Shown: positions 14,478-53,824 of the stretch, in pieces | Position numbering within the stretch: position 1 is the first letter of the stretch | Layout of the letters: each line of letters opens with the position of its first letter | Source of the DNA: Acinetobacter phage Acba_15 | Sequence record: OQ101257.1 | Reading direction: 5' to 3' (one strand) | Length of the DNA: 60,424 nucleotides | Made by a program: the position numbers and the translations under genes | The notes under the pieces: generated by a model | Told to the model about the DNA's origin: nothing | Seen by the model: only the letters and a program-made list of their open reading frames with translations | Databases searched by the model: none

Positions 14478-14503
14478 AAGCCACCCTCGGGTGGTTTTTT
14501 ATT
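14478..14503 (+). terminator. Intrinsic terminator.
   Basis: Hairpin ccaccctcgggtgg plus ttttttattgc. Confidence 0.5.
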
Positions 14504-14514
14504 GCGAGGTCAAA

Positions 14515-15006
14515 ATGGAATTCAGACAAGTTGTTAAGAACCATTGCGACATTGCGCCAGTCACTAACTTTCTTAATGTGAATCATGGTAAGGCAGCGAG
14601 TGAAGGGAAGCCGTTAGTTGTATTGATTGCACCTCAAGAGAAAGACCGGACGAAAGCTCAAAACCGTTTGTACTGGATGTGGCTAAATCAGTGGGCTAAG
14701 AAGCAGGGAACGGATAAAGACTATGAACATCTGTTCTTTAAGAAGAACTTCTTATCCAAAATCTATGATCGTGATGACGTTGGCCAATACAAGAAAACAT
14801 TCAAGGCTGTTAGAGAGTTGAAGGATTCTAAGCATCCTCTTTATCAAGATGTAGCAAACGGCCTATGCGAGCTAATGAGCACTACAGACGCAAGTACAGC
14901 TCAATTCACAGAATACCTAAACGACATTCACGCATTCTGCAATAAAAACGGGTGTTATTTGGAAACGCCTGATGATTTAAAATGGTGTTATAGTGATCCT
15001 TTATAA
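14515..15006 (+). CDS. NinB/Orf-family recombination mediator.
   Basis: PLVVLIAPQEKDRTKAQNRLYWMW resembles the lambda NinB segment PIVVTIQERNRSLDQNRKLWA. Start set at the ATG MEFRQVV, because the track start lies inside the terminator. Confidence 0.55.
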   Translation: MEFRQVVKNHCDIAPVTNFLNVNHGKAASEGKPLVVLIAPQEKDRTKAQNRLYWMWLNQWAKKQGTDKDYEHLFFKKNFLSKIYDRDDVGQYKKTFKAVRELKDSKHPLYQDVANGLCELMSTTDASTAQFTEYLNDIHAFCNKNGCYLETPDDLKWCYSDPL

Positions 15007-15023
15007 TAAATAAGGGTCTATAA

Positions 15024-15257
15024 ATGTCAGAAAAGCGTGAATTTTCGGTAAAAGCTAAAGCAGAAGATGGCACTACAAACGGTTATGTAGTTGAGTTTGA
15101 TATTTTTGATACACTAAACTTGGATGATGGGGAATTTAAAAGCAAATCCTTCATTCCAAATGTAGTCATAATTGATCAAAATCGGATCCCAGTTTATTCA
15201 AAGAAATTTAGAGATCCGAGAGACGATAAAGAATATACGATTCAAGGTAATTTTTAG
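15024..15257 (+). CDS. Hypothetical protein.
   Basis: ORF only. Confidence 0.3.
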   Translation: MSEKREFSVKAKAEDGTTNGYVVEFDIFDTLNLDDGEFKSKSFIPNVVIIDQNRIPVYSKKFRDPRDDKEYTIQGNF

Positions 15258-15259
15258 TA

Positions 15260-15284
15260 GAACCGCCCAAGTGGCGGTTTTTTA
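15260..15284 (+). terminator. Intrinsic terminator.
   Basis: Hairpin ccgcccaagtggcgg followed by tttttt. Confidence 0.5.
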
Positions 15285-15297
15285 ATGGGCGAGAATA

Positions 15298-15732
15298 ATG
15301 GATTCTACAGAATACTTTTGGCTTACTCGGAAAAAAGAACCTAAAACTAAACCTAAAAGCCGGCCACTGCCAAAGCCTACACAAAAATATCTCGAGGCTG
15401 AGGCAACACTTAAGGAAGAGCTTGAGGATTTGTCGATTGGATTTGAACAGAAGTTTCAGCCGATCCATACCAAACACTGGCGCTTTGATTTTCATATTGT
15501 GAAATTGCGTTTGCTCATTGAAATTGAGGGTGGGCCCTGGTCTGGTGGACGTGGTGGAAAGCTGGCAAATAAAGCATGGAGTCTTGATCAATATGATCAA
15601 GCTGAAGAGATGGGTTATAAAATAGAGCGCTTTCATCCAGATTCTATTTTGTCGGGATATGTCATCAACTGGATAAAAAGTGAATTAGCGAGAATTGAAG
15701 ATGGAGCAGATCAGACCATTTCCACCGACTGA
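15298..15732 (+). CDS. Vsr/DUF559-like PD-(D/E)xK endonuclease-fold protein.
   Basis: FDFHIVKLRLLIEIEGGPWSGGRGG...GYKIERF matches the DF...IE.DG..WH.....GW.VLRF pattern. Confidence 0.4.
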   Translation: MDSTEYFWLTRKKEPKTKPKSRPLPKPTQKYLEAEATLKEELEDLSIGFEQKFQPIHTKHWRFDFHIVKLRLLIEIEGGPWSGGRGGKLANKAWSLDQYDQAEEMGYKIERFHPDSILSGYVINWIKSELARIEDGADQTISTD

Positions 15733-16342
15733 TTTTATTGATCAAGCTGAAGAAGAGGAAGCAATTAGACTAACACCAGCACCGGACTTAAAAAAATGGG
15801 TTGTGGCTAATTACTTAACTATTGGGGGTCCTATTTATAATCCAGATCATGATCATATTGCTGAGCTGCTTCATGATAATGACGAGTTTTTAGCATTCGC
15901 GTGGGCCTCTTCTGCATATAAAAGCAAGCAAGCTATGGTGTTAGGCCAGTGCGAAAAAGTCATGTTCAATGTTGGTGGCTGGCGTAAAGCTCGACAAGAG
16001 CAACAGATGCGTGATTGGTTTGGTTTTGTACCTACTTATTTAATAACTGTCGACGCTTCTTTCTGTGAGCGTGCAAACGATACAGAGTTCTGTTACTTAC
16101 TTGAACATGAGCTTTACCACATTGGAGTGATGAGAGACGAGGACGGAGAAATTGTTTATAGCGATAGTTCTGGTCTTCCTAAGCACTATCTTGCTGGTCA
16201 TGACGTTGAAGAGTTTATTGGCGTAGTTAAACGTTATGGACCAAGCAAAAATGTTAAGCGACTTATTGAAGTCGCAAAAAATCCGCCGTTTGTTTCGAAT
16301 CTTGATATTTCAAAATGCTGCGGCAACTGTGTAATCAATTGA
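15695..16342 (+). CDS. Hypothetical protein carrying an HExxH motif (LEHELYH). Putative metallopeptidase-like.
   Basis: HELYH motif with a downstream Glu/Asp-rich segment. No firm family assignment. Confidence 0.3.
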   Translation: MKMEQIRPFPPTDFIDQAEEEEAIRLTPAPDLKKWVVANYLTIGGPIYNPDHDHIAELLHDNDEFLAFAWASSAYKSKQAMVLGQCEKVMFNVGGWRKARQEQQMRDWFGFVPTYLITVDASFCERANDTEFCYLLEHELYHIGVMRDEDGEIVYSDSSGLPKHYLAGHDVEEFIGVVKRYGPSKNVKRLIEVAKNPPFVSNLDISKCCGNCVIN

Positions 16343-16362
16343 GCCTAATGGCTCTTTTTTTT
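16341..16362 (+). terminator. Intrinsic terminator.
   Basis: Hairpin gagcctaatggctc plus a T8 run. Confidence 0.5.
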
Positions 16363-16400
16363 GCCCATTTTGTTATACGTAGTTATACGATGAGGAAGTT

Positions 16401-16871
16401 ATGGCGACACTAAAAGAGCCTGTGAAAATCTTTATAGTTCAGTCTCTTGCTTGTCGTGATACACCTCAAGAAGTGGCTGAACTCGTAAAACAAGAGTTTG
16501 GCGTTGATATAGATCGTGTTCAAGTTGCAACTTATGACCCTACAAAGGTTGCTGGTAAGAACTTAAGCAAAAAGTATGTCGAACTATTTGAAAAAACCAG
16601 AGATGAGTTTGATAAAGGCTTAATTGATATTCCAATTGCTAATAAGTACTACCGATTGAAGCAATACCAAAGACAACTTGAGAAGACTAGAAACGTCAAA
16701 ACAGCCTTAAAAATTCTTGAGCAAGCCGCTAAAGACATTGGTGGTCAATTTACTAATCGCCAAGAAATTACAGGCAAAGACGGCGGACCAGTCCAAACAG
16801 TTAATTCAGAAATTCCAGTTCCAATGGAAGATTACTTAAAAGCGCGGAGGGAAGTCTTAGATGAGTACTGA
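16401..16871 (+). CDS. Putative terminase small subunit.
   Basis: Lies immediately upstream of the large terminase and overlaps it. Size is 156 aa. The call rests on position. Confidence 0.4.
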   Translation: MATLKEPVKIFIVQSLACRDTPQEVAELVKQEFGVDIDRVQVATYDPTKVAGKNLSKKYVELFEKTRDEFDKGLIDIPIANKYYRLKQYQRQLEKTRNVKTALKILEQAAKDIGGQFTNRQEITGKDGGPVQTVNSEIPVPMEDYLKARREVLDEY

Positions 16872-21802: not shown

Positions 21803-21824
21803 TAGCACCTTCGGGTGCTTTTTT
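21803..21824 (+). terminator. Intrinsic terminator.
   Basis: Hairpin gcaccttcgggtgc followed by ttttttt. Confidence 0.5.
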
Positions 21825-21836
21825 TGCGAGAAGAAA

Positions 21837-22043: not shown

Positions 22044-22066
22044 AAGCGTCCTAAAGGGCGCTTTTT
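22044..22066 (+). terminator. Intrinsic terminator.
   Basis: Hairpin agcgtcctaaagggcgct plus ttttttattgcc. Confidence 0.5.
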
Positions 22067-22141
22067 TATTGCCTGCCGAAAGCGGATGCTAACGGCGAAT
22101 CCGGGCGGATGCCCATTTTGTATATATAGGTTGGATGACCA

Positions 22142-22936: not shown

Positions 22937-23893
22937 ATGACTACGACAGTTAATTCAGACATGATCATCTATAATCAATTGGCTCAAACTGCTTATTTAG
23001 AGCGTTTGCAAGATAATTTGAATGTATTTAACCAAGCCTCTAATGGTGCAATTGTTTATCGCAATGAGATCATTGAAGGTGATTTCAATAAAGAAGCATT
23101 CTACAAAGTGGGCGGTAGCATCAAACATCGTGATGTGAATTCAACCGCCAAAGTAGTTCCAGAGAAAATTGGTTCTGGTGAGTCTGTAGGCGTAAAAGTC
23201 CCATATAAATATGGTCCTTATGCATCAACTGAAGAGGCATTTAAGCGCCGTGCTCGTACACCAGAAGAATTTGCTATGGTTGTTGGTTACGATCTTGCAG
23301 ATGCATTGGTTGCAGGCCGATTAGAGTACAGTTTAGCTTCTTTAAAAGCTGCTATTTCTAGCAATCCAGACATGGTTGCAAAAGGTAGTATCGTTGTTGA
23401 TGGCCGCAAAGCATTGACTCGTGGTATGCGAAAGTTTGGTGATAAGTTTGGCCGCATTGGCTTATGGGTGATGAACTCAGATACATATTTCGATATTGTC
23501 GATGATGCAATCACTAAGCAAATTTATGGTGAATCTGAAATCGTTATCTACGGTGGTTTACCGGGAACCTTAGGAAAGCCGGTCTTGGTGACGGACGCTG
23601 TAGGTGATAACGATGCTTTTGGTTTGCAGTATGGCGCTGTCACTGTAACTGAATCACAAGTACCGGGCTTCCGAGCTTATGACATCAATGATGAAGAAAA
23701 CTTAGCAATCGGTATGCGTGCTGAAGGTGCATTTAACTTAGATATTCTTGGTTATAGTTGGGATACATCGAAAGGTGAAAATCCTGACCTTACATTACTT
23801 GGTTCAAGCGCTAACTGGATCAAATATGCAACCAGCAACAAAATGACAGCAGGTACCTTACTTGATTTATCGGGTACAGCGACAACTGGTTAA
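22937..23893 (+). CDS. Major capsid protein (probable).
   Basis: 318 aa, in the position after the scaffold gene, with a strong Shine-Dalgarno sequence and a terminator downstream. Confidence 0.5.
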   Translation: MTTTVNSDMIIYNQLAQTAYLERLQDNLNVFNQASNGAIVYRNEIIEGDFNKEAFYKVGGSIKHRDVNSTAKVVPEKIGSGESVGVKVPYKYGPYASTEEAFKRRARTPEEFAMVVGYDLADALVAGRLEYSLASLKAAISSNPDMVAKGSIVVDGRKALTRGMRKFGDKFGRIGLWVMNSDTYFDIVDDAITKQIYGESEIVIYGGLPGTLGKPVLVTDAVGDNDAFGLQYGAVTVTESQVPGFRAYDINDEENLAIGMRAEGAFNLDILGYSWDTSKGENPDLTLLGSSANWIKYATSNKMTAGTLLDLSGTATTG

Positions 23894-23912: not shown

Positions 23913-23940
23913 AAGGGGGCTAATAAGCCCTCTTTTTTAT
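23913..23940 (+). terminator. Intrinsic terminator.
   Basis: Hairpin gggggctaataagccctc followed by ttttttat. Confidence 0.4.
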
Positions 23941-23958
23941 TATTAAGAGAAAAGCGCC

Positions 23959-27445: not shown

Positions 27446-27467
27446 ACCACCTCATCGGTGGTTTTTT
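27446..27467 (+). terminator. Intrinsic terminator.
   Basis: Hairpin ccacctcatcggtgg followed by ttttttt. Confidence 0.55.
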
Positions 27468-27487
27468 TATGTCTATAGGAATCACTT

Positions 27488-29199: not shown

Positions 29200-29222
29200 C
29201 CCGCTTAAAAAGCGGGTTTTTT
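29200..29222 (+). terminator. Intrinsic terminator.
   Basis: Hairpin cccgcttaaaaagcggg followed by tttttt. Confidence 0.55.
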
Positions 29223-29248
29223 ATTGCCTAAATTTTGGAGAACCATAA

Positions 29249-30185: not shown

Positions 30186-30213
30186 AGCCTATGAAATTCC
30201 ATGGGCTTTTTTA
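30186..30213 (+). terminator. Intrinsic terminator or attenuator.
   Basis: Hairpin agcctatgaaattccatgggct followed by ttttttatt. Confidence 0.45.
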
Positions 30214-30236
30214 TTCCTAAAATTTCAGAGGTTGTT

Positions 30237-30997: not shown

Positions 30998-31006
30998 AAA
31001 TCTATA

Positions 31007-31270
31007 TTGCATTTGGCAAAAATCAAAGATAAATTGATGTCTCATACTTCTCACTCTTTGAGTAAGGGCCGCCGGTCGAATGTCGGGCTTTTTTTGTTAA
31101 GTGGTAATTCACCTACAAAGGAAAGCATGATGAAGAACCTTACTCATGCAGAACCCTATTTCATCATGCGTGAAAAAAAGGAACTGCAAAAGAGACTTTT
31201 AGATAAGAACAATGAACTATTGGAATTGATGCAAAGAGTTGAAAAATACTTGATGAGGATAGAAAAATAG
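31007..31270 (+). CDS. Hypothetical small protein. The start is uncertain and may be at 31127.
   Basis: ORF only. Confidence 0.25.
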   Translation: MHLAKIKDKLMSHTSHSLSKGRRSNVGLFLLSGNSPTKESMMKNLTHAEPYFIMREKKELQKRLLDKNNELLELMQRVEKYLMRIEK

Positions 31271-31287
31271 AGAGTTGTCTTTCTACA

Positions 31288-31322
31288 AAAAAGCCCGCCT
31301 AATCAGCGGGTTTATTTGTTTC
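31288..31322. terminator. Bidirectional intrinsic terminator.
   Basis: A-run, then hairpin gcccgcctaatcagcgggt, then a T-run. It lies between convergent genes. Confidence 0.5.
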
Positions 31323-33513: not shown

Positions 33514-33584
33514 AGCCCACTCATCGAGTGGGTTTTTTAATACCCAAAACAAAACCCCAGTAGCGCTAACTACTGGGGTTTTTC
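33514..33584 (+). terminator. Two tandem intrinsic terminators.
   Basis: Hairpin agcccactcatcgagtgggtttttt and hairpin aaaaccccagtagcgctaactactggggttttt. Confidence 0.5.
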
Positions 33585-33775: not shown

Positions 33776-33825
33776 ACCGACCTATCAATGGTCGGTTTTT
33801 TATTACCGAAATTTTGGAAGCAAAT

Positions 33826-34173: not shown

Positions 34174-34233
34174 TTAAGACTCGATTTATTGCCGCCGCTT
34201 AAGGTGGTTTTTTATTGCCTGAAGGAAAGTCAA

Positions 34234-38284: not shown

Positions 38285-38312
38285 AAAAGCTCGCTTATTG
38301 CGGGCTTTTTTT
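38285..38312 (+). terminator. Intrinsic terminator.
   Basis: Hairpin gctcgcttattgcgggc followed by ttttttt. Confidence 0.4.
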
Positions 38313-38667: not shown

Positions 38668-38721
38668 TTTTTTCTCAACGGCTCCTTAAGGAGCTTTTTT
38701 ATTGCTTATTGGAGCAGAAAC

Positions 38722-41197: not shown

Positions 41198-41263
41198 AAA
41201 ATTTGTTGTGATGTTTTTTTAAGGCGCTTTAAGCGCCTTTTTTATTGCGCGAGATTTAAACCT

Positions 41264-44200: not shown

Positions 44201-47200
44201 GCTGATGAAACTGATGCACGCACAGCGGCAATTTCTAAACTGAATGATGGTCTCACCACAGAAACGTCTCAGCGCAAGTCAGAAGATGCTGCACTGTTAA
44301 ACAATATTGAGACTTATAAGTCGAGCACCAATGGCACTTTGTCTAGTCTGCAAACGCAAATTAATACCAACGCGACAAATACAAGTGCAAATACATCAAA
44401 AATTTCTTCGCTTGACTCTCGTTTAACCACAAACGAAGGCAAAACCGCAGATGCGATTAATGCAGCGGCAACAGCTCAACAAACTGCCAATACCGCCGTT
44501 ACTAATGCGGCAGCAGCAGCTTCGGCAGTTACCTCACTAAAATCAGAGTTGAGTACAGGCAAAGGCATCAACAATATCATTGCGCCTTTTTCTGATCCGC
44601 AAGAACTATCACCTTACATTATCGGTGCGTCGAGAACCGTTGCCTTAGTAAAATCACCAATGCGTATTAAGGGTAATGCTTATGACGTTACATTTAATGC
44701 GGTGGCTGGCAGTATTTATTTTGGTTCCTCGTCACTAGCAACAGTCAATACTGCGGCGGCAGGTGTTGTCAGTGGCGGAAAGCGTTACATGCTAAGCGCT
44801 TATTTAAAGAACCTCGATGCCACTAAACAGGCAGATGTTTACTTTACATTGCATTGGTTTAAACGTGCAGCAAACGGCACTTTCACGGCTTCTCAAAGTG
44901 TTTTATTAAATCAGGCAACTAACAACACACGAGTAACACCTTCAAACGACGGCGGTACAATTAGCTGTAAAGCTGTAGCAGCACCACCAGATGCAGTTGC
45001 CTTTGCGGTTATCTGTTCTGGCAACGGCGTTTATAACGTCGCTGGTTCACGCATTCTCATTGACATGTTAATGCTTGAAGAGGTCGTTGGTGTCGATGTA
45101 CCTGCTTCAACATGGACAGCAGGACCAACTGATTTAAGTGCTATTAAATCCGCTCTTGATGCCAATGCTTCTGCTATTAGCAAAATCGATACCCGTGTAA
45201 CAAATGCCGAAGGCACCATTACAAGCCAAGGCAATTCAATTACTCAATTGAATAACAGCGTTACGTCAATCAATGGCGAACTTACGAAGAAAGCTGATGC
45301 TACGGCTTTAAATGCCTTAACCAACCGAGTATCGACAGCAGAAGGCACAATTACAAGTCAAGGCAATTCAATTACGTCTTTACGTAATGATTTAAACGCA
45401 ACCAATGACAAGGTTTCGTCAAAAGCGGACTCAAGTGCATTAAATTCCTTAGATTCTAAGGTTACAAGCATTGATGGAAGAGTAACTAGCAATACGAGTG
45501 CTGTGACCTCATTGCAAGGTCGTGTTTCAACCGTCGAGGGTGGACTTTCATCGAAAGCAGATGCCTCGGCATTAAACAATTACTACACCAAAACAGAGGC
45601 GGATTCTGCCGCTTCTGGCGCAATCGATAAGTTCAACAGTCAATTGACGATCGGCGGAGTAAACGCTGTTGCGAACTCAGAGGCTCCACGTACTTCAACG
45701 GCAGCGACTAACAAAGAATACTTGCTGTACGAACGCAGCGCCGAATTAAAAACGTTCTATGACGAGAACCTTGAGAAGCCAATCACGATTTCGTTTGAAA
45801 TGAGCGTTCCTGTGGCTGGACCAGTTCAAGTTTATTCGTCAAATGGTTCTGCTCACCAATTCGTTACTTCCGTTAACGCGGTTATCGTCAATCAGTTTGC
45901 CAAATACTCAGTAACAGTTAGTCCAAAATCGCACACCGCAAGTACAACTGTTTCAACAATTGAGTTCTATGGAACGTATGGAACTGGTCGTATCCCGACG
46001 ATTCGTAAATTACAAATTGAAGCGGGCACAAAGGCTACCGCTTGGAGTCCAAGCCCTCGTGATACAAAGGCTGCAATTGACGCCAATGCTTCTGCAATTC
46101 AAACGACCCAAACAAAAGTTGACAATATCGATGGTCGGCTAACCACTGCTACAGATTCGATTACGTCACTAAATTCGCGCATGTCTACAGCCGAAGGGAA
46201 TATCAACAGCACAAATACTGCGGTTGGTGGACTTTCGACACGCATGGCAACCGCTGAGGGCAAGATCACCAATCAAAGTGATTCAATTGCATCGCTACAA
46301 AATAGCGTCACCTCAATCAATGGAACACTGGCAAACAAAGCCGATTCAAGCGCGGTCAATAACTTAACTAGCCGAGTGGAAACAGCCGAGGGCAAGATTT
46401 CAAGTCAAAGCGGGCAGATTACTTCGCTTAGCAATAGCCTTGATCTAACAAACAGCAACTTGAACGACGTAAATGTTCTGGCGCGACTGTTATCGCTTGG
46501 TAAGCCTCTACGCGAGGATCCAACTTTTAAAACTACCTCTTCGGGCGGTTTGTCTGCATACAATTTCCCTGCGGGAACCTCATGGATTAAGCAAGCCAAG
46601 TCAACAGACAACCCAACTGGCTCAACCCATGAAATGCTTATTAAGGCAACTCAAGCGTTGGGTGGTGGTTGGTATCCAACTGCTCCAACGCTCGTGCTTA
46701 CTGCTAATAAGACATTCTTAATTAAACAAATTATTAAGATGCCAGTAGGCACGAGATTGCTACCTGTAGGTAACACCACTGGTACGGGTGGTTATATCAG
46801 AATCTTGGGTAACGATCTTGGGACTGGCAAATTTGAAACGTACTACTCGGTCGTTCAGGGTGGATCTGACTTAAGCAGCTCTATTCAGGGTCATTTCCGT
46901 GTAATTGCTGGGACCAACCCGCCAGTACCAACCGTTGATAGTCCAGTTTTTGTAATCCTCGCTTCATACGAAGTGTTTGATGTTACGGCTGTAAATGACA
47001 CCATTCCAAAAGCGTATAGCGATGCTATTGCAGCCAATGCGAATGCTATTAACACGATCTCAAACGCCGTCAGCCAGCAAGGCAATACAATTGCTTCTCA
47101 CAGCAATTCGATTACCCAACTCAACAACAGCATTACTAGCATTAATGGCGCACTTTCGAATAAAGCGGACGCGAGTGCATTACAGTCATTGGATTCAAAA

Positions 47201-50200
47201 GTAACGCTAATCGATGGCAAAGTTACTTCAAATTCATCGGCCTTAACGGCTTTACAAAGCAGCTTTGAGGGAATTCCAAATCAAGGCGTGAATCTGCTCG
47301 GCCCTGAAATTTCCAACCCAATCGAAAAGCCAAATTGGATTTCAGGCCTTCCATTTGAAGTTATTCAATCACCAGATACGGTGAATGTGCGTGCGTTCCA
47401 ATTCACGATGACTGCTAACACCACTAGCGGCACTTACTTCAATATTGGCGGTGGTCAAGTGCCTCGCCAATGGTTAACTGAAGGCAAATATATCTTTAGT
47501 TTTGTTGCTAAAACAGTTGATGGTGCGCCACCCCACCCGATTGACTGGGTAATGTACAACGTTAGCACTACTCGCCAACGTTTCAATATTACAGCGACAT
47601 TAACTCGTTACAGTGCGGTATTCACCGTTCCTGCCGGCGGCGCGGCAGCATGTATGTTGTTGTACGGAAATCCTGCTGGCAAACCTGCTGGCCAAGTTAT
47701 CAATATCGAAAGAATGATGCTTGAACGCCAAGTCGGCAACAACACCACGCCTTCGACTTGGATTGCAGGGTCAGATCCAACTGGAATGATCATTTCCACT
47801 CAAGCAAAAGCGACTGACCTGTTCAATACAGCCACGAATCAAAATAATGCAACTGCGGGACGTGTTACTAGCCTCGAAAGTCGCATGACAACCACAGAAG
47901 GCAATTTAAGCAAAAAGGCTGATGCTTCTGCGCTTCAAAACCTCGACACGAAAGTTACGAATGTCGATGGCAAGGTAACGTCAAATACCAACGCTATCAC
48001 CTCGCTCAATTCCGCGTTAAGCAATGCCACATCAAGTATTTCAATGAATGCGGGTAATGCACAGGGCGATTGGACATTCTTTAATACGTCAGGCGAATAC
48101 TCAATTGTTGCACAAGCGGACGGACAAGCTGGTCGAGTTATTCAACTGGGTAACAACGCGGGCAATGACATTGTTTGGATGCATCCAAACAACTTCATTC
48201 CGTTTGACGCAACCAAAACATATCGCTTACGAGTGCGTTATCGCCGTCGTGCAGGCAATGGCACCATTTATGTCGGTGTCTCGCAGAAAACCCCAGACAA
48301 GGCACTATACGTAACAACAGCCAACGCATTATCGGGCGACATGGGATCTTCTAACTATGTCGTTAATGCCCACGCGCCTGCGATCGATGAATGGCAAGAA
48401 ATCGTTGCGTATATCAAAGGTCGATCAGCAGGAGCGGCATCAGGTTCAGGCTCAAAAACAAGCCCACGTACTGTTTCACAACAAGCAGGCTTCATCACGC
48501 CGATGTTTATTGCAAACTATTCGGCGCAAACGGGCATTGTTGAGCTTGATTACCTAATTCTGGAAGATGCAGAGGCAATTGTTGCCAATGATGCAAATGC
48601 ATCAGCGATTAGCGCTCTTGATACCAAAGTATCAGAAGTTGATGGACGCTTAACGACAGCAACAAATTCAATCACTTCGCTTAACTCTCGTATGAGTGCA
48701 GCAGAAGGGAATATCTCAGCGGCAAACTCGGCTCTAAGCGGGCTTTCGACAAGAATGACGGCTGCTGAAAATGGTTTAACAAATCAAAGCAACGCGATTA
48801 CTAATTTAAGTAACAGCTTGACGGTTACAACCAATACAGCCAACGCTGCATTGCCAAAGATTCAGGGCGGCACTGGCGCAGCTAAGTTATTTAGAGGCGT
48901 GCTGGTGTGGCAACAAAACGGCGCAAATCTAACTGGCAATATCGTAATCCAAACGCCAATTACGTTCACAAATAAAATGTTCCGACTTTCACTTACTGGC
49001 TATAACTACTTGGCCGCTAAGAATGAAATTAATCTGAACATTGGGGGTTATGCATATTCGGGCACCTCTCTACTTCAACATGGTGTAGTGAATTCGGGCA
49101 CCATGCCAATTCGAGTTCGCATGGGCGTCCGTAATGGCACAGTAGTCATTATTTTGACGTCCCAAGCGCCCGGTGCTTATTGGCAGTATCCAAAATTCAA
49201 CATTGATGCCGAAATCGGCTATACAACTCCGCCAGACGAATGGATGAATGGTTGGTCTGCAAGCTTCATGGCAGAGGCAGACCTCGCATCTAATGGCATT
49301 TCGGCGATCATTGAGCCGTCTTTATTAGACATTTCAACAACGCTTAATGCCACTGCATCTGCAATTAGCAATCTGACAAATACTGTGTCTCAACAGGGTA
49401 ATACAATTACTTCACAAAGTAATTCTATTACCACCTTAACCAACAAGATTACTAACAACGATTTATCGAATCTTGTTCTTAATCCTGATTTCGTAGACCC
49501 GAAAAGCGATTGGACATCTGGCGTAATTGTTGATGCGACTGACGCAGCACCTAACCCGCCTTCTCCAAAAGCATTAAGACTGAATAACCGCGATAGTTAT
49601 TACGGTCCTTTTGTCAAATGTAATGTTGGCGACATGTTCTACGTTTCGGCTTGGTTTGCAACGCCAAATACATCAGTAATCGCTTCTGCTGTACTTGGTT
49701 TCAATACTCGAAACAGTGCAGGTACTTATACTTGGTATAGTGTTGCCGTCAAGTCTACAGATAAAAATGCTTGGGGTATGGTGGAAGGTTATTTCACTGT
49801 GCCAAATGGCATGGTTGAAATTCGACCTTGGCTTCAAGTAAGTATTGCTGCGTCAGAGGCAGCGGGGCAGCAATGGCATGTTACGAACATTCAAGTACGT
49901 AACATTACAGGTAATAAGAAATTAGCAACCGACTTGCAAGCAACCTCGTCTGCATTAAGTACGCTTGATTCCAAAGTTGCAAACATTGACGGCCGTGTAA
50001 CTTCCGCATCTAACAATATTGTTTCGCTCAACAATAGCGTCACAAACATCAATGCCGCACTTTCTCAGAAAGCGGATGCGGCGGCATTGAATTCCCTTTC
50101 TAACCGTGTAACCACTGCCGAAGGGAATATCACTAGTCAGGGTAATTCAATTACCTCATTGACCAACTCGTTAGCTGTGAGCGGAAAGGCGGGCACAAAC

Positions 50201-51733
50201 CTTCTCATCAAGTCAAATCAAGTCGGTACATATGATGGTGTCTCTTATCCGCATCACACCTACAAACTCGGTGAAGATTGGGAAATTGGGGCTACCTATA
50301 CTTTAATTTGGTGCGCTGAACATAAACGAGGGACTGGTGATACAAACTCATCACTTGCTGTATACGCAGGTGGTGGCTCACAACATCTACAAGCCGTAGT
50401 AAATACGAATGGTAAGGTTGTCAGCAAAGTTACCTTTGTTAAAAACAGCGCAGTTGCCTCTGGCCCAATTATCCACTTCTACATGCTCAACCGTCCGACA
50501 GCCGACAAGGGTAGCGTTGGTACGGTTTATTGGGCAGTTCTTGTTAAAGGCGATGTACTCACTACGGACGCGTGGATTCCGAGCCCATATGATTACATCC
50601 CTGATAGCAATGCAAACGCTTCTGCTATCGCAAATCTCACTAATACAGTAAGTCAGCAAGGCAATACTATTACCTCAAATAGCAGCAGCATTACCTCGCT
50701 AAACAATAGCATCACCAATATTAACAGCACATTAGCAACAAAAGCAGATAGTTCTGCGCTTACAAACCTCGCAAGCCGCGTAACCGCAACAGAAGGTGCA
50801 ATTACATCCCACGGCTCAAGCATTACTTCACTGAATGCATCTGTGAATGGTTTATTAAAGGATGTTTCAGTATCCGATACGCGGTCAACAAATCAGCCGC
50901 CGTCATGGTACTGGTCAAACTATCCATTACGTATCGTTCGCGAGTTCAAACAAGCATCTGTGCTAGGTTTAACTGGCATGGGCACTTATGTCTCTCTTGA
51001 AACATACGTTTATTGGACTGACGCATCTGGTGGCCCAATTATTCAAATTGCACGCGGCACAGATTCGAAACTTACTGCTGAACGTCGTAGTGCGAGTACA
51101 GCGGCATGGAGTACATGGACACAAGATATAAAAGCAATAAGTGATGGGCTTGCAAATAAGGCTGAAGCATCCGCACTTTCATCACTTGACTCGAAAGTGT
51201 CGGTTATTGATGGGAAAGTTTCTACTCAGGCCTCAAGTATTACTACACTGCAAACTACAGTTGGTGGTAATACAGCCTCTATTCAATCTCAACAACAATC
51301 AATTGATGGCCTGAAAGCAAGAGCAACATTGAAGCTGCAATCCGGCAATTTGGTTGGTGGCGTTGGCATTGAGAATGACAGCAAAACAGTCGATTTCATC
51401 ATCCAAGCTAATAAGTTTGCAATTGGTGCGCCTTCAACTGTTTCCGGCTCTGTGACGCCTAAATATGCATTCGTCTATCAATCAACAGCAACAACTCTGC
51501 CGAATGGGACAGTGATTCCTGCTGGCTTGTACTTAGACAGCGCGTCTATTAGCTATATCAACGCCAACAAAATTTATGCAGATAGTTTAAGTGCTATTAG
51601 TGCAAATCTTGGTACCTTTACCTCATTGGCAGATCAATCAAAACCAAATGGTGCTAGGACTGTAATTAGTGGTGAGAGGATCGAAGTTTACGACGAAAAC
51701 AATGTTATGCGTGTACGGATTGGGAGATGGTAA
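41264..51733 (+). CDS. Giant 3489-aa tip/host-specificity protein, gpJ-like at the N-terminus, followed by about nine repeated stalk-plus-domain modules.
   Basis: The N-terminal 800 aa resemble gpJ. There follow an Ala/Thr/Asn-rich region and then repeated blocks of DANASAI...TSQGNSITSL...KADASAL...RV...EG, each followed by a domain of about 200 aa. Confidence 0.7.
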   Translation: MAIVKGAKKGKGEARKPVVAPDSAQSKTYIKILYGLGEGEIEGLANGNQSIFLEGTPLQDANGNLNYSNVKLDFRKGTNDQDYIEGFPSVESETAVDVELKSGAPWVRAFNNIDLDAVRIRLKWGPLRQQDSSTGDVSGITIEYAIDIQTDGGAWTEVLKTKISDKTSANYERAHRIDLPKADSGWLIRVRRITPNSTSEFVSDKMYVEAFTEVVDAKLRYPNTALLGLQYDAETFGNVAKLAVDLKGRLLLVPTNYNPQTRQYTGIWDGTFKRAYTNNPAWIYYDLCTNDRYGLGNRLTPFMIDKWSLYRLAQYCDQSVSDGLGGQEPRFTCNVYIQNAEDAFSILMKLAGVFRAIAFWDGTSIICDADIPQDTYFTYTRANVVGGVFEYSGTRARDRHNVVKVAWDNPANHYKTEYEFVRDENAIAESGQVRILELDAWGCTSRGQAQRAGHWALKSEQKETRTVSFKVGLDGHIPLPGRVIEIADELFAGRANGGRVSKISADLKSITIDRDDVIAKAGDRLVINGENGKAQTRIVQSISGRVITVTLPFDENSIAVQNVWVLDAQDLATMKFRVISISQEEKHQFSITALQYNPQKFDEIDNGAFFEDAPISIINPSIQEPVKDVLITTESRVDQGINITTMIVSWMQAKGAVKYLVEWRKDDGSWIRLPQTGNNSVEVPGVYSGQYQARVTAISAFEIASLPVTSSLTEITGKQGLPPKIAFIRATGILFGMKLDWGFPPTGAKDTAYTEIEVSPDGINNIAQLGLFAYPTTTTTIQGLQPNLRQFYRGRLIDRIGNVGPWSEWVNGTTTADPEAVLDLISGHINESDLAQELQGKIENSVDVSEAAQAAANNAQAVASSAQTAANNAQAVASEAKTAASSAQSAATTAQTQASSAQKIANDASVIATNAKNTADQAAEDASSAITAAAEAKTTATNANTTATNAQTTANNASSAASKVASDLTTSTNQLNKKIADETDARTAAISKLNDGLTTETSQRKSEDAALLNNIETYKSSTNGTLSSLQTQINTNATNTSANTSKISSLDSRLTTNEGKTADAINAAATAQQTANTAVTNAAAAASAVTSLKSELSTGKGINNIIAPFSDPQELSPYIIGASRTVALVKSPMRIKGNAYDVTFNAVAGSIYFGSSSLATVNTAAAGVVSGGKRYMLSAYLKNLDATKQADVYFTLHWFKRAANGTFTASQSVLLNQATNNTRVTPSNDGGTISCKAVAAPPDAVAFAVICSGNGVYNVAGSRILIDMLMLEEVVGVDVPASTWTAGPTDLSAIKSALDANASAISKIDTRVTNAEGTITSQGNSITQLNNSVTSINGELTKKADATALNALTNRVSTAEGTITSQGNSITSLRNDLNATNDKVSSKADSSALNSLDSKVTSIDGRVTSNTSAVTSLQGRVSTVEGGLSSKADASALNNYYTKTEADSAASGAIDKFNSQLTIGGVNAVANSEAPRTSTAATNKEYLLYERSAELKTFYDENLEKPITISFEMSVPVAGPVQVYSSNGSAHQFVTSVNAVIVNQFAKYSVTVSPKSHTASTTVSTIEFYGTYGTGRIPTIRKLQIEAGTKATAWSPSPRDTKAAIDANASAIQTTQTKVDNIDGRLTTATDSITSLNSRMSTAEGNINSTNTAVGGLSTRMATAEGKITNQSDSIASLQNSVTSINGTLANKADSSAVNNLTSRVETAEGKISSQSGQITSLSNSLDLTNSNLNDVNVLARLLSLGKPLREDPTFKTTSSGGLSAYNFPAGTSWIKQAKSTDNPTGSTHEMLIKATQALGGGWYPTAPTLVLTANKTFLIKQIIKMPVGTRLLPVGNTTGTGGYIRILGNDLGTGKFETYYSVVQGGSDLSSSIQGHFRVIAGTNPPVPTVDSPVFVILASYEVFDVTAVNDTIPKAYSDAIAANANAINTISNAVSQQGNTIASHSNSITQLNNSITSINGALSNKADASALQSLDSKVTLIDGKVTSNSSALTALQSSFEGIPNQGVNLLGPEISNPIEKPNWISGLPFEVIQSPDTVNVRAFQFTMTANTTSGTYFNIGGGQVPRQWLTEGKYIFSFVAKTVDGAPPHPIDWVMYNVSTTRQRFNITATLTRYSAVFTVPAGGAAACMLLYGNPAGKPAGQVINIERMMLERQVGNNTTPSTWIAGSDPTGMIISTQAKATDLFNTATNQNNATAGRVTSLESRMTTTEGNLSKKADASALQNLDTKVTNVDGKVTSNTNAITSLNSALSNATSSISMNAGNAQGDWTFFNTSGEYSIVAQADGQAGRVIQLGNNAGNDIVWMHPNNFIPFDATKTYRLRVRYRRRAGNGTIYVGVSQKTPDKALYVTTANALSGDMGSSNYVVNAHAPAIDEWQEIVAYIKGRSAGAASGSGSKTSPRTVSQQAGFITPMFIANYSAQTGIVELDYLILEDAEAIVANDANASAISALDTKVSEVDGRLTTATNSITSLNSRMSAAEGNISAANSALSGLSTRMTAAENGLTNQSNAITNLSNSLTVTTNTANAALPKIQGGTGAAKLFRGVLVWQQNGANLTGNIVIQTPITFTNKMFRLSLTGYNYLAAKNEINLNIGGYAYSGTSLLQHGVVNSGTMPIRVRMGVRNGTVVIILTSQAPGAYWQYPKFNIDAEIGYTTPPDEWMNGWSASFMAEADLASNGISAIIEPSLLDISTTLNATASAISNLTNTVSQQGNTITSQSNSITTLTNKITNNDLSNLVLNPDFVDPKSDWTSGVIVDATDAAPNPPSPKALRLNNRDSYYGPFVKCNVGDMFYVSAWFATPNTSVIASAVLGFNTRNSAGTYTWYSVAVKSTDKNAWGMVEGYFTVPNGMVEIRPWLQVSIAASEAAGQQWHVTNIQVRNITGNKKLATDLQATSSALSTLDSKVANIDGRVTSASNNIVSLNNSVTNINAALSQKADAAALNSLSNRVTTAEGNITSQGNSITSLTNSLAVSGKAGTNLLIKSNQVGTYDGVSYPHHTYKLGEDWEIGATYTLIWCAEHKRGTGDTNSSLAVYAGGGSQHLQAVVNTNGKVVSKVTFVKNSAVASGPIIHFYMLNRPTADKGSVGTVYWAVLVKGDVLTTDAWIPSPYDYIPDSNANASAIANLTNTVSQQGNTITSNSSSITSLNNSITNINSTLATKADSSALTNLASRVTATEGAITSHGSSITSLNASVNGLLKDVSVSDTRSTNQPPSWYWSNYPLRIVREFKQASVLGLTGMGTYVSLETYVYWTDASGGPIIQIARGTDSKLTAERRSASTAAWSTWTQDIKAISDGLANKAEASALSSLDSKVSVIDGKVSTQASSITTLQTTVGGNTASIQSQQQSIDGLKARATLKLQSGNLVGGVGIENDSKTVDFIIQANKFAIGAPSTVSGSVTPKYAFVYQSTATTLPNGTVIPAGLYLDSASISYINANKIYADSLSAISANLGTFTSLADQSKPNGARTVISGERIEVYDENNVMRVRIGRW

Positions 51734-52057: not shown

Positions 52058-52782
52058 TGGATAACTATTTCTTAGTAAAGAATGACTTCATAAATGCTAT
52101 TGATGATGACTATTTCAATCTTGCATTTATTAGAAAACAACGTTTTAACTTCACATCTGAACCTGGGATTACCTATTACTATCGTACTTTTGAAGTAGAT
52201 ATAACAGGGATAGATTTTCCTGTTATTGCAATTAGTTGTGTTTGTCCTTCTGCTTATTTAAGTATGAAAGCCAATACGCTTTCTATTGTTTGCTCAGCAA
52301 GTAATTATGATGGTGTGGCTAATTCAGTTAGCAATTTAAATAATTCATCTAAGTATTTAGATGTGTTTGTTTTTGGTCGATTGCCTAGAAGCAGTATTCC
52401 AGAACATGGTATTGGTGTAGTCTGTTTAGATGCATCAAGTAAAGTAGTTTATTACAGTGGTGCAGAGTATTTGAAACCCATAAAAATGTTTATTGATCCC
52501 AATACTTATCGACCAATGTTTAATTCAAACTACAATACTCAGGTCGAGTATTTGCCGATTGGCAAGTCTTATGCATGTATTCCCTTAAATAGAGTAAATA
52601 CTGTTTATTCGGAGTGGACGCCTGAAGGTCAAGATGTCATAGCAATGTCATCAGTTTGTGCTATTGAGGGCAATACTATTACTTATACCTCAAATCAGGT
52701 GCAAGTCGCACAAGATATTAGTGCTGTTTACAATGGATATTGTAGACATATGTACATGTTAATCGATGTATCGAACTATTAA
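52054..52782 (+). CDS. Hypothetical protein, candidate fibre accessory or assembly protein.
   Basis: ORF only. Confidence 0.3.
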   Translation: MMDNYFLVKNDFINAIDDDYFNLAFIRKQRFNFTSEPGITYYYRTFEVDITGIDFPVIAISCVCPSAYLSMKANTLSIVCSASNYDGVANSVSNLNNSSKYLDVFVFGRLPRSSIPEHGIGVVCLDASSKVVYYSGAEYLKPIKMFIDPNTYRPMFNSNYNTQVEYLPIGKSYACIPLNRVNTVYSEWTPEGQDVIAMSSVCAIEGNTITYTSNQVQVAQDISAVYNGYCRHMYMLIDVSNY

Positions 52783-52799
52783 TAAACCTTTAATTATCA

Positions 52800-52823
52800 G
52801 CACCCAATTCGGGTGCTTTTTTA
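52800..52823 (+). terminator. Intrinsic terminator.
   Basis: Hairpin agcacccaattcgggtgct followed by tttttt. Confidence 0.55.
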
Positions 52824-52849
52824 ATGCCTAAAAATATCTGGAGAAATTT

Positions 52850-53239
52850 ATGGAACCAGTTTCCACTAGCGGTTTTACAGCACTTTTAAAATTATATGGG
52901 ATTGCAATCATGGTGACTTTAGCAGTCGGTTTGGTTGCAGCAGTTGTATTAATGACTCGTATGCCACGCTCACCACAAGAGTGGGCAGTTGGTTTGATCT
53001 GTACGGTTGTATCAAGTTTGGCTGGCGGCTCATTCATTATTGTGAAGTGGGGACTTCATGAATGGGTTACTGATGTATGGGGGATGATTGCTCTAGGTGG
53101 GTTCTTCTTTGTTTGTGGTTTACCCGGTTGGGCTTTAGTCCGTTGGATTTTTAATTTTATAGATAAACAGGAAGGTAAAACGATCGTTGAAGTGATCAAA
53201 GAGTTTAAGAATGCCAGAAAAGACATTGAAAACAGTTAA
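52850..53239 (+). CDS. Holin (probable), with three predicted transmembrane segments.
   Basis: Hydrophobic helices and a charged C-terminus, located immediately upstream of the endolysin. Confidence 0.5.
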   Translation: MEPVSTSGFTALLKLYGIAIMVTLAVGLVAAVVLMTRMPRSPQEWAVGLICTVVSSLAGGSFIIVKWGLHEWVTDVWGMIALGGFFFVCGLPGWALVRWIFNFIDKQEGKTIVEVIKEFKNARKDIENS

Positions 53240-53240
53240 T

Positions 53241-53262
53241 ACCGCCTTCGGGCGGTTTTTTT
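53241..53262 (+). terminator. Intrinsic terminator or attenuator.
   Basis: Hairpin ccgccttcgggcgg followed by ttttttt. Confidence 0.5.
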
Positions 53263-53281
53263 ATATCTGAAGGAAACCGAA

Positions 53282-53824
53282 ATGAATATTGAAAAATATC
53301 TTGATGAATTAATTAAGCGTGAAGGCGGGTATGTAAATAACCCAGCTGATCGGGGCGGTGCAACTAAATATGGCATCACACAAGCTGTTGCGCGTGAAAA
53401 TGGCTGGAATGGCAATATGAAAGATTTGCCGCTTGATGTGGCCAAAGCTATTTACAAGAAGCAATACTGGACAGCTCCGCGATTTGACCAAGTAAATACA
53501 ATCAGCTCAGCAGTGGCCGAAGAGCTTCTAGACACTGGTGTGAATTGCGGTACCGGCTTTGCAAAACCTCTTTTACAACGAGCTTTGAACTTACTAAACA
53601 ACCAAGGTAAAGCTGGATATGCAGATTTAGAGGTTGATGGTGTTTATGGATCTGAAACTCTTAGAGCTCTAAAAACATACTTGTCAAAACGTGGGAAAGA
53701 AGGTGAGAAGGTTCTGGTGCGAGTGCTCAATATTATGCAAGGGCAACGCTACATTGAAATCTGTGAGCGTAATCCAAAGCAGGAACAGTTTTTCTATGGC
53801 TGGATTGCTAACCGGATCGGCTAG
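53282..53824 (+). CDS. Endolysin, a GH108 lysozyme-like domain with a PG_binding_3 domain.
   Basis: N-terminal EGGYVNNPADRGGATKYGIT is the GH108 hallmark. Confidence 0.8.
   Translation: MNIEKYLDELIKREGGYVNNPADRGGATKYGITQAVARENGWNGNMKDLPLDVAKAIYKKQYWTAPRFDQVNTISSAVAEELLDTGVNCGTGFAKPLLQRALNLLNNQGKAGYADLEVDGVYGSETLRALKTYLSKRGKEGEKVLVRVLNIMQGQRYIEICERNPKQEQFFYGWIANRIG

What the first reader, a model, noticed from the sequence alone, without database searches (positions are those of the whole stretch)
14478..53282. Recurrent intergenic element: hairpin, T-run and ATTGCC, then AAATTTTGGAG-like Shine-Dalgarno sequence, then ATG, preceding many late genes
Many late genes are preceded by a GC-rich hairpin. 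It is immediately followed by TTTTTTATTGCC (variants ATTCC, ATTACC, ATTGCG) and about 15 nt later by the start codon. Gene starts following this element include 14515, 15298, 22142, 29249, 30237, 33826, 34234, 38722, 41264, 52850 and 53282.

The conserved bases after the T-run go beyond what an intrinsic terminator needs. The element may couple partial termination or attenuation with re-initiation, act as an RNA processing or stability site, or be recognised by the Q-modified polymerase.
Basis: seen in the sequence. Interest (0 to 1): 0.55.

Follow-up and report, generated by a model that had tools for sequence, protein, structure and literature searches.

The report
Terminators inside a phage late operon
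The repeated hairpin, T-run and ATTGCC elements are ordinary factor-independent transcription terminators between the late genes of an Acinetobacter prophage, of a kind already annotated in E. coli HK97-like phages; only the GCC that follows them remains unexplained.

Summary
On the + strand from 13.5 to 53.3 kb, 21 GC-rich hairpins are followed by T5-8, and TTTTTATTGC occurs 7 times against 0.95 expected.

The window is a temperate A. baumannii siphovirus. It encodes a Q-like antiterminator (12373-12813), and an extended -10 promoter follows that gene directly.

The elements have the anatomy of intrinsic terminators, and most of the "extra" bases are terminator grammar. T6ATT or T7AT is the usual 9-nt U-rich tract with a purine-U near its end. 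That is the "bubble-edge" feature of the 2026 HUB model, GC(U)7RU, and Acinetobacter chromosomal terminators show it too.

The GCC at +10..+12 from the stem is locked to the hairpin, not to the start codon or the Shine-Dalgarno sequence. It is much commoner in phage late operons (0.37) than in host terminators (0.05-0.09).

The cassette T6ATTGCCYGGAG..ATG recurs in more than 120 viral contigs and in Pseudomonas, Klebsiella, Salmonella and E. coli phages. HK022/HK97-like and ES18 records annotate it as "terminator".

I found no support for coupled promoters, sigma-54 sites, RBS membership or a special role in recombination.

Verdict: a new member of a known kind. The role of GCC is unexplained.

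The parts
12373..12813 (+). Q-like antitermination protein gene (146 aa)
   Evidence: PHROG phrog_79 'anti-termination protein Q-like', E 6.6e-27. No Pfam hit.
12829..12837 (+). Candidate late promoter: extended -10, TGgTATAAT, 16 nt after the stop codon of the Q-like gene
   Evidence: Read directly from the sequence. Inferred, not mapped.
13530..13552 (+). First hairpin plus T5 downstream of the candidate late promoter (tail GCTTTTATGCC)
14481..14506 (+). Hairpin CCACCCTCGGGTGG, T6, ATTGCG. ATG at 14515 (NinB-like gene).
15263..15289 (+). Hairpin CCGCCCAAGTGGCGG, T6, AATGGG. ATG at 15298.
16341..16365 (+). Hairpin, T8, GCC, upstream of the small terminase-like gene at 16401
21805..21825 (+). 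Hairpin GCACCTTCGGGTGC, T7, then GCGAG. Gene at 21837.
22046..22073 (+). Hairpin GCGTCCTAAAGGGCGC, T6, ATTGCC. A 74-nt leader follows before the scaffold-like gene at 22142.
23915..23944 (+). Hairpin, T6, ATTATT, directly after the major capsid gene (22937-23893). ATG at 23959.
27447..27474 (+). Hairpin CCACCTCATCGGTGG, T7, ATGTCT. ATG at 27488.
29200..29228 (+). Hairpin CCCGCTTAAAAAGCGGG, T6, ATTGCC, then AAATTTTGGAG. ATG at 29249 (major tail protein).
30187..30217 (+). Hairpin, T6, ATTCC, after the major tail protein gene. ATG at 30237 (tail chaperone).
31072..31095 (+). Hairpin plus T7 inside the variable (moron-like) region
33516..33583 (+). Two tandem hairpins: T6 AATACC, then a 24-nt hairpin with T5. 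They mark the end of the variable region.
33777..33807 (+). Hairpin CCGACCTATCAATGGTCGG, T6, ATTACC. ATG at 33826.
34192..34219 (+). Hairpin CCGCCGCTTAAGGTGG, T6, ATTGCC. ATG at 34234 (tape measure protein).
38289..38312 (+). Hairpin ending in GC, then T7 and GT, after the tape measure gene. This is an exact GC(U)7RU match.
38681..38706 (+). Hairpin GCTCCTTAAGGAGC, T6, ATTGCT. ATG at 38722.
41223..41249 (+). Hairpin GGCGCTTTAAGCGCC, T6, ATTGCG. ATG at 41264 (3489-aa J-like protein).
52800..52828 (+). Hairpin GCACCCAATTCGGGTGC, T6, AATGCC. ATG at 52850.
53242..53268 (+). Hairpin CCGCCTTCGGGCGG, T7, ATATCT. ATG at 53282 (endolysin-like gene).

Best explanation
The elements are intrinsic (Rho-independent) transcription terminators placed at gene junctions on the coding strand of the phage's long rightward late transcription unit.

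Anatomy, shown:
- Each has a short GC-rich hairpin followed by a 9-nt U-rich tract, U6AUU or U7AU.
- The A-U inside the tract matches the purine-U at -2/-1 of the release site in the HUB terminator model.
- The last two stem bases are mostly GG or GC. That fits the -11/-10 edge if release is at +9.

Mechanism, inferred:
- Host RNA polymerase that has not been modified stops at these sites. This covers stray transcription in the lysogen and transcripts from inserted accessory genes.
- Polymerase modified by the phage's Q-like protein, loaded at the promoter just after the Q-like gene, reads through them during lytic growth. Some residual attenuation after the capsid and tail-tube genes is possible.

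The GCC at +10..+12 belongs to the terminator rather than to the ribosome-binding site. I infer, weakly, that it acts on the polymerase at or just after the release site. It could be the G(+1) of the elemental pause consensus, or a G/C-rich downstream duplex that affects forward translocation.
For: Anatomy:
- 21 hairpin plus T5-8 elements lie on the + strand of the late region, and 3 on the - strand of the whole window.
- Terminator-like sites are enriched: 33 against 13.8 expected, and 27 against 17.4. Promoter-like sites are depleted: 33 against 52, and 12 against 44.
- The hairpins fold as predicted and leave the tail unpaired.

Tail grammar:
- 15 of 21 have U6-7, then a purine, then U, ending at +8/+9.
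- -11/-10 is GG or GC in 14 of 17 if release is at +9.
- This matches GC(U)7RU and GS(N)7RY.
- Host Acinetobacter terminators share the A-T tail: A 0.69 and T 0.62 after the T-run, against 0.44 and 0.29 for T-runs without a hairpin.

Operon context:
- A Q-like gene and an extended -10 promoter lie upstream.

Same cassette elsewhere:
- HK022/HK97-like and ES18 records annotate it as 'terminator'.
- HK633 carries annotated rho-independent terminators at the same kinds of late-gene junctions.
- Intra-late-operon terminators are described for P22-like phages (PMC8022706).

GCC belongs to the hairpin, not the RBS:
- It sits at a fixed +10 from the stem, whether the tract is T6ATT or T7AT. The T-run is always 6 or 7 when GC is at +10/+11.
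- Its distance to the ATG varies, and 17 of 28 GC-class sites have no start codon within 45 nt.
- GCCY precedes GGAG at 31 of 85 starts that have a T-run upstream, against 10 of 447 without one.
- A weaker version is present at host terminators: GCC 0.05 in Acinetobacter, and 0.09 in other Proteobacteria against a 0.03 background.
Against: - No 3'-end or transcript data exist for this phage, so termination and read-through are inferred from sequence alone.
- The core stems are short (5-7 G/C pairs, -6 to -10 kcal/mol; -11 to -18 with A-U extensions).
- The Q assignment rests on one profile match, with no Pfam support.
- The GCC enrichment (0.37 in the phage family against 0.05 in the host) is not explained by known terminator rules. 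In the HUB study, adding sequence from -41 to +19 raised the explained variance only from 68% to 71%. A large effect of GCC on efficiency is therefore unlikely.
- G at +10 is not enriched in Acinetobacter host terminators (0.20-0.24).
Confidence: 0.75

Rival explanations
1. The GCC(Y) box, or the whole T6ATTGCCYGGAG cassette, is a separate sequence-specific signal selected in phage late operons. It could be a determinant of how far Q-modified polymerase reads through, an endonuclease processing site that leaves the upstream mRNA with a protective 3' hairpin, or a binding site for a phage or host factor.
For: - GCC at +10..+12 is 4-7 times commoner in phage late-strand terminators than in host terminators.
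- The 17-mer occurs in at least 120 viral contigs spanning GC 0.36-0.65, and 121 of 125 copies have a hairpin directly upstream.
- It is kept at equivalent junctions in Acinetobacter, Pseudomonas and Klebsiella phages whose capsid proteins are only about 63% identical, for example before the J-like tail gene, the tape measure gene and (as ATGCC in the Pseudomonas phage) the scaffold gene, while the hairpin sequences differ.
Against: - No protein, RNA family or published motif could be linked to it. Rfam found nothing and literature string searches found no description.
- The positions are polymorphic at orthologous sites: ATTGCC, ATTACC, ATTTCT, ATGTCT.
- E. coli HK633 has it at only 1 of 8 late-operon terminators.
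- A weak version exists at ordinary host terminators.
Confidence: 0.15
2. The shared T6ATTGCC junction is a short homology patch (a 'linker') at which gene modules and accessory genes are exchanged between phages. On this view it is conserved because it spreads by recombination, not because of transcription.
For: - Upstream of the tape measure gene, at least 8 unrelated upstream sequences, each with its own hairpin, join the same T6-7ATTGCCTAGAGGAAA.
- Some sites carry two or three ATTGCC copies around short inserts (window 34165-34219; L108).
- BLAST alignment ends cluster at the elements: 15 of 92 clusters against 1.6 expected at random positions.
Against: - When gene junctions are compared with each other, breakpoints are no more frequent at hairpin junctions (5 of 8) than at plain junctions (9 of 17; Fisher p = 1.0). 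The clustering therefore reflects gene boundaries in general.
- A 12-nt patch is short for homologous recombination.
- The motif is strand-specific and locked to the hairpin, as expected for a transcription signal.
Confidence: 0.06
3. The elements are promoter-coupled terminators, or re-initiation sites. The stem-loop DNA would serve as a -35 region, the T tract as a spacer or UP element, and ATTGCC as a -10 or -35 element, so that transcription restarts for each late gene.
For: - Promoter-coupled terminators, with a -10 hexamer right after the T tract and a start site about 10 bp after the termination site, were mapped in A. baumannii itself (bioRxiv 10.64898/2026.08.19.745784).
- A few window elements do have TATnnT-like tails: TATTAT at 23938-23943 and TATATC at 53262-53267.
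Against: - TATTGC lacks the T at -7.
- Reading TTGCCT as a -35 finds no -10 hexamer 16-18 bp downstream at any site, and it would put the start site inside the gene (inspection sequences).
- Promoter-like sites are depleted in the late region.
- A sigma-54 reading (GG-N10-GC) fits only the 29200-29228 element.
Confidence: 0.04

Closest known systems
Canonical intrinsic terminators as redefined by the HUB model (hairpin, U-tract, bubble-edge dinucleotides; GC(U)7RU; Battaglia et al., bioRxiv 10.64898/2026.05.29.728758)
   Same: - A GC-rich hairpin is followed by a 9-nt tract with 8 U.
- A purine interrupts the tract one or two positions before its end.
- The stem ends in G-G or G-C.
- 38289-38312 is an exact GC(U)7GU. 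T7AT and T6AAT sites fit GS(U)6-7RU.
   Different: - The commonest form here is T6ATT, which resembles lambda tR2 (U5AUUU).
- The GCC that follows lies outside the -11..-1 window of the model.
Intra-operon terminators of lambdoid late operons (P22/L, HK97, HK022, ES18), read through by Q-type antitermination
   Same: - The elements sit on the same strand at the same kinds of junction: after the capsid gene, around the major tail gene, and before the tape measure, J-like and tail-fibre genes.
- The spacing of terminator, Shine-Dalgarno box and ATG is equally tight.
- The identical T6ATTGCCTGGAG cassette is annotated 'terminator' in HK022-type genomes.
- Their role is stated as unknown in PMC8022706.
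   Different: - The host is Acinetobacter (39% GC).
- The GCC tail is far more frequent here than in HK633, where it occurs at 1 of 8 terminators.
- The Q-like protein is a different, unvalidated type.
Promoter-coupled terminators of A. baumannii (Fletcher et al., bioRxiv 10.64898/2026.08.19.745784)
   Same: - They occur in the same host.
- A terminator sits between tandem, functionally related genes in short intergenic regions.
- Bases directly after the T tract are conserved.
   Different: There, the conserved bases are a -10 hexamer with a start site about 10 bp downstream. Here, no -10 hexamer is present.
Morons of lambdoid phages (promoter, gene and terminator units inserted between late genes; from my own knowledge of Juhala et al. 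2000)
   Same: The variable region 30752-33800, and the many alternative inserts upstream of the tape measure gene in relatives, each end in their own hairpin and T-run.
   Different: Most elements in the window follow core structural genes, not inserted accessory genes.
Elemental pause consensus G(-10) Y(-1) G(+1) of bacterial RNA polymerase (from my own knowledge of Larson et al. 2014 and Vvedenskaya et al. 2014; written GS(N)7RY)
   Same: With release at U9, the last stem base is G in about half of the elements, -1 is U and +1 is G.
   Different: The consensus does not predict the two C residues. Whether pausing occurs here is untested.

Membership tests
Intrinsic (Rho-independent) terminator, HUB definition | A GC-rich RNA hairpin lies immediately upstream of the U-tract | tested here: met
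   All listed elements have one. Core stems are 5-7 G/C pairs. Folding gives -11 to -18 kcal/mol once A-U extensions are included.
Intrinsic (Rho-independent) terminator, HUB definition | A 7-9 nt U-rich tract follows the stem | tested here: met
   T5-8 runs are present. Stem-anchored positions 1-9 read T6ATT or T7AT, that is 8 U in 9. The modal number of U in Term-seq terminators is 8.
Intrinsic (Rho-independent) terminator, HUB definition | Purine-U at -2/-1 of the release site | tested here: met
   15 of 21 late-strand elements have U6-7, then A or G, then U, ending at +8 or +9. The release site itself is assumed.
Intrinsic (Rho-independent) terminator, HUB definition | G-C (or G-S) at -11/-10 | tested here: inconclusive
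   GG or GC in 14 of 17 if release is at +9, but fewer if release is at +8. The phase depends on the unmapped release site.
Intrinsic (Rho-independent) terminator, HUB definition | RNA 3' ends form and transcript is released at the site | not testable with these tools
   This needs Term-seq or in vitro transcription.
Late-operon terminators under Q-type antitermination (lambdoid phages) | An antiterminator gene lies at the end of the early-right genes, followed by the late promoter | tested here: met
   The Q-like gene 12373-12813 matches phrog_79 at E 6.6e-27. The TGgTATAAT promoter at 12829-12837 was read from the sequence and is not mapped.
Late-operon terminators under Q-type antitermination (lambdoid phages) | Terminators lie on the coding strand between co-oriented late genes, with few internal promoters | tested here: met
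   The same architecture is annotated in HK633.
Late-operon terminators under Q-type antitermination (lambdoid phages) | Q-modified polymerase reads through them | not testable with these tools
   This needs induction experiments with and without the Q-like gene.
Promoter-coupled terminators (A. baumannii) | A -10 hexamer lies immediately downstream of the T tract | tested here: not met
   TATTGC lacks the -7 T, and no consistent TAnnnT follows (sequences). Promoter-like sites are depleted.
Promoter-coupled terminators (A. baumannii) | A transcription start lies about 10 bp after the termination site | not testable with these tools
   This needs 5'-end mapping.
Recombination linker or mobile regulatory cassette (of the T4 PeSL type) | Mosaic breakpoints are concentrated at the element more than at other gene junctions | tested here: not met
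   5 of 8 hairpin junctions and 9 of 17 plain junctions carry breakpoints (p = 1.0).
Extended ribosome-binding site | The motif lies at a fixed distance from the Shine-Dalgarno box or start codon and is present regardless of a terminator | tested here: not met
   - GCCY precedes GGAG at 31 of 85 starts with a T-run and at 10 of 447 without one.
- The distance to the ATG is 8-70 nt, while the distance to the stem is fixed.

The most novel reading that the evidence does not exclude
The GCC(Y) at +10..+12 after the hairpin is a selected, sequence-specific extension of terminators in temperate-phage late operons across Gammaproteobacteria, outside the hairpin / U-tract / bubble-edge definition. 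It might set how leaky the terminator is for unmodified against Q-modified polymerase through the downstream DNA duplex, or mark a processing site. The cassette T6ATTGCCYGGAG would then be a shared regulatory part that phages of Acinetobacter, Pseudomonas and enterobacteria keep while the flanking genes and hairpins change.
Probability: 0.2. Interest if true: 0.55.

Novelty: new member of a known kind. Interest (0 to 1): 0.3.

Why it matters
The result explains the layout of the late region of a common family of A. baumannii prophages. One promoter follows a Q-like gene, and about 20 terminators then punctuate roughly 40 kb.

It also shows that most of the apparently "extra" conservation is ordinary terminator grammar.

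The useful residue is a clean, testable observation. A GCC locked at +10 from the stem is several-fold commoner in phage late-operon terminators than in host terminators, and it is shared across phages of distant hosts. If it affects termination or antitermination, it would add a downstream element to terminator models. It would also bear on the still open question of why lambdoid late operons contain terminators at all.

Tried and rejected
- **-35 plus UP element (TTGCCT after a T tract).** No -10 hexamer lies 16-18 bp downstream at any site, and the start site would fall inside the gene.
- **-10 element (TATTGC).** It lacks the -7 T.
- **Sigma-54 -24/-12 (GG-N10-GC).** It fits only the 29200-29228 element, because the stems differ.
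- **Part of the ribosome-binding site.** Rejected and by the variable distance to the ATG.
- **Host-wide Acinetobacter terminator signature.** This holds only for the A-T part. The two "host" examples with a nearby start codon both carried T6ATTGCC, and the one I checked (L022) lies in a prophage next to glnA.
- **Recombination hot spot.** Rejected by the junction-matched control.
- **Compensation for weak hairpins.** Stem energy does not differ between sites with and without GC at +10/+11 (median -8.5 against -8.05 kcal/mol, p = 0.77).
- **Known RNA family.** Rfam found nothing at gathering threshold.
- **Literature.** Searching for the string TTTTTTATTGCC or UUUUUUAUUGCC found only one incidental terminator in Pseudomonas phage JG004 and no description of the motif.
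- **RNase E-type site (RAUUW or RN-WUU).** The motif does not fit either consensus. This comparison rests on my memory of those consensus sequences and was not tested.

Full report
**What the window is**

The window is 99-100% identical over long stretches to the temperate Acinetobacter baumannii siphoviruses Acba_4, Acba_16 and Acba_1, in a mosaic pattern. Its integrase gene occurs in many A. baumannii chromosomes next to glnA.

From about 12.9 kb to 53.8 kb almost all genes lie on the + strand. In order they are nin-like genes, terminase, portal, capsid, tail, a 3489-aa J-like protein, and lysis genes.

**Check of the observation**

- The tail after the T-run is ATTGCC at three sites, ATTGCG at two and ATTGCT at one.
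- ATTCC, ATTACC, AATGCC, AATGGG and T7ATATCT occur once each.
- TTTTTATTGC occurs 7 times against 0.95 expected, and none of 100 shuffles reaches 7. Six of the seven copies are on the + strand directly after a hairpin.
- ATTGCC on its own is not enriched.
- The spacing to the ATG is 14-27 nt, and 74 nt at 22142.
- The AAATTTTGGAG box is present at three sites only.

**Is the tail more than background?**

I anchored all elements on the last stem base and removed redundancy.

The data were the window plus 80 related prophage loci from IMG/VR, fetched with the major tail protein. Over 90 elements, with each hairpin and each downstream context used once, the consensus is TTTTTTATTGCCTAAA. G is 0.53 at +10, C is 0.49 at +11 and C is 0.48 at +12.

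Collapsed further to 77 distinct downstream contexts, GC at +10/+11 occurs in 21 of 77. It forms a sharp positional peak (0.27 at +10 and at most 0.08 elsewhere).

For comparison I took 169 hairpin plus T-run sites from 14 Acinetobacter species chromosomes (glnA neighbourhoods).
- These show A (0.69) and then T (0.62) after the T-run. T-runs without a hairpin show 0.44 and 0.29.
- They show no G at +10 (0.20) and only a slight C excess at +12 (0.31).
- GC at +10/+11 occurs in 13 of 169 (Fisher p = 9e-5 against the phage contexts).

Two of these "host" sites were followed closely by a gene start, and both carried T6ATTGCC. The one I checked, in L022, lies in a prophage between a tail-fibre-like gene and holin- and endolysin-like genes, with an integrase gene close by.

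The bases are conserved above background, but in two layers: an A-T layer shared with the host, and a GCC layer that is mainly phage.

**To which feature does the motif belong?**

GCC keeps a fixed distance from the stem. The tract is either T6ATT or T7AT, and the T-run is always 6 or 7 when GC is at +10/+11. The distance to the start codon varies, and 17 of 28 such sites have no start codon within 45 nt.

In 120 diverse viral loci, GCCY directly precedes GGAG at 31 of 85 gene starts that have a T-run upstream, and at 10 of 447 starts without one.

The motif therefore belongs to the hairpin and T-run unit, not to the ribosome-binding site. Hairpin strength does not differ between sites with and without it.

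**What the elements are**

Their anatomy is that of intrinsic terminators.
- In the late region, terminator-like sites are enriched and sigma-70-like promoter sites are depleted.
- A gene at 12373-12813 matches Q-like antitermination proteins (phrog_79, E 6.6e-27).
- Sixteen nucleotides after its stop codon lies an extended -10 promoter, TGgTATAAT (12829-12837).

This is the lambdoid arrangement: one late promoter, an antiterminator, and a long operon.

Intra-operon terminators in such operons are known. The phage L paper says their roles are not known and suggests partial termination or blocking of spurious transcription (PMC8022706).

The very same cassette is annotated "terminator" in HK022, HK97-like phages and ES18. 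HK633 has annotated rho-independent terminators after the portal and capsid genes, around the major tail gene, and before the tape measure, tail assembly, central fibre and side fibre genes. These are the same kinds of junction as in this window.

**The A-T(-T) after the T-run**

A 2026 preprint mapped termination sites over about 10^4 templates. It found that strong sites have the form GC(U)7RU, with a purine at -2 and U at -1 of the release site and G-C at -11/-10. This resembles the elemental pause signal GS(N)7RY, and hairpin plus U-tract alone are not sufficient (bioRxiv 10.64898/2026.05.29.728758).

In the window, 15 of 21 elements have U6-7, then a purine, then U, ending at +8 or +9. 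The last two stem bases are GG or GC in 14 of 17 if release is at +9. The element at 38289-38312 is an exact GC(U)7GU. T6ATT also resembles lambda tR2 (U5AUUU) and t-oop (T6ATTGG).

**The GCC**

This part is not explained by published terminator rules. In the HUB study, extending the sequence window to +19 added little predictive power (R2 from 68% to 71%). The authors do note that downstream sequence could matter for hypertranslocation.

With uniform strict criteria, GCC at +10..+12 has these frequencies:

| Set | Frequency of GCC at +10..+12 |
|---|---|
| Acinetobacter host terminators | 0.05 |
| Other proteobacterial host terminators (background 0.03) | 0.09 |
| Non-seed terminators of diverse viral loci | 0.15 |
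| Late strand of this phage family | 0.37 |
| Other strand of the family (n = 12) | 0.00 |

A weak general signal therefore exists and is strongly amplified in phage late operons.

It is shared across hosts.
- The Pseudomonas relative PseuP_222 (capsid protein 63% identical) has ATTGCC or ATGCC after 5 of 7 late-strand terminators, including the equivalent junctions before the scaffold and J genes.
- A Klebsiella relative has T6ATTGCCCGGAG before its long tail protein gene, probably the tape measure.
- The 17-mer TTTTTTATTGCCYGGAG is found in at least 120 IMG/VR contigs with GC from 0.36 to 0.65. A hairpin lies directly upstream of 121 of 125 copies, and an ATG lies 4-10 nt after GGAG.

My best inference is that GCC acts at or just after the release site. 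It could be the G(+1) of the pause consensus, or a G/C-rich downstream duplex. This inference is weak and untested.

**Rivals**

- A coupled promoter, as mapped in A. baumannii by Fletcher et al., requires a -10 hexamer after the T tract. None is present.
- A recombination-linker role looked attractive. At least eight unrelated upstream modules, each with its own hairpin, join the same T6ATTGCCTAGAGG upstream of the tape measure gene. Alignment end points also cluster at the elements. However, a junction-matched control shows the same breakpoint frequency at junctions without hairpins (5 of 8 against 9 of 17, p = 1.0).
- A separate sequence-specific function for GCC cannot be excluded. It is the most novel reading left.

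**Verdict**

It is partly wrong: most of the "extra" bases are terminator grammar, and there is no evidence for re-initiation.

The elements are new members of a known kind. The phage-enriched GCC at +10..+12, and the wide distribution of the T6ATTGCCYGGAG cassette, are not described in the literature I could search. They are a modest, testable lead.

Noticed in passing
window 12811-12879: Directly after the stop codon of the Q-like gene lies an extended -10 promoter, TGgTATAAT (12829-12837). A roughly 30-nt stem-loop follows (GCCATACAGGTG...CACCTATATGGC, 12849-12879) with no T-run. This could be the Q loading or pause region.
   Followed up: partly
window 12908-13477 and 13958-14239: A T5orf172-type endonuclease gene (Pfam PF10544, phrog_681) sits between the candidate late promoter and the first terminator. 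An HNH/DUF968 endonuclease gene lies further downstream. Both may be mobile insertions in the leader of the late operon.
   Followed up: no
window 34165-34219: Three ATTGCC copies lie within 55 nt (34165, 34188, 34214). The first is followed by TAG, as at the tape-measure junction of relatives. This looks like a trace of successive insertions at that junction.
   Followed up: partly
window 22068-22141; L094 about 16523-16566: The scaffold-like gene has a 74-nt leader that starts ATTGCCTGCCGAAAGCGGATGC. The orthologous leader in Pseudomonas phage PseuP_222 starts ATGCCTGCAAAGCGGGCAAC. A small conserved hairpin may follow the terminator. Rfam found nothing.
   Followed up: partly
related prophage loci L095-L174: The same short hairpins (GCACCCTAGGGTGC, CCACCTTCGGGTGG, CCCACTC..GAGTGGG) recur in front of many unrelated downstream sequences. 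CCCACTC..GAGTGGG also occurs at host terminators near tRNA genes. I did not resolve whether this reflects convergence on a few stable stems or the spread of small units.
   Followed up: no
window 14001-54000: Sigma-70-like promoter matches are clearly depleted in the late region: 33 against 52.3 expected, and 12 against 44.0.
   Followed up: no
L022 4287-8854: An Acinetobacter terrae 'host' locus next to glnA contains a prophage end: a tail-fibre-like gene, T6ATTGCC, a holin-like gene, an endolysin-like gene and an integrase. This shows that prophage sequence contaminates host control sets.
   Followed up: yes
window 41264-51733: The 3489-aa J-like tail protein gives 16-20 separate matching places per related phage record, which suggests internal repeats.
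   Followed up: no
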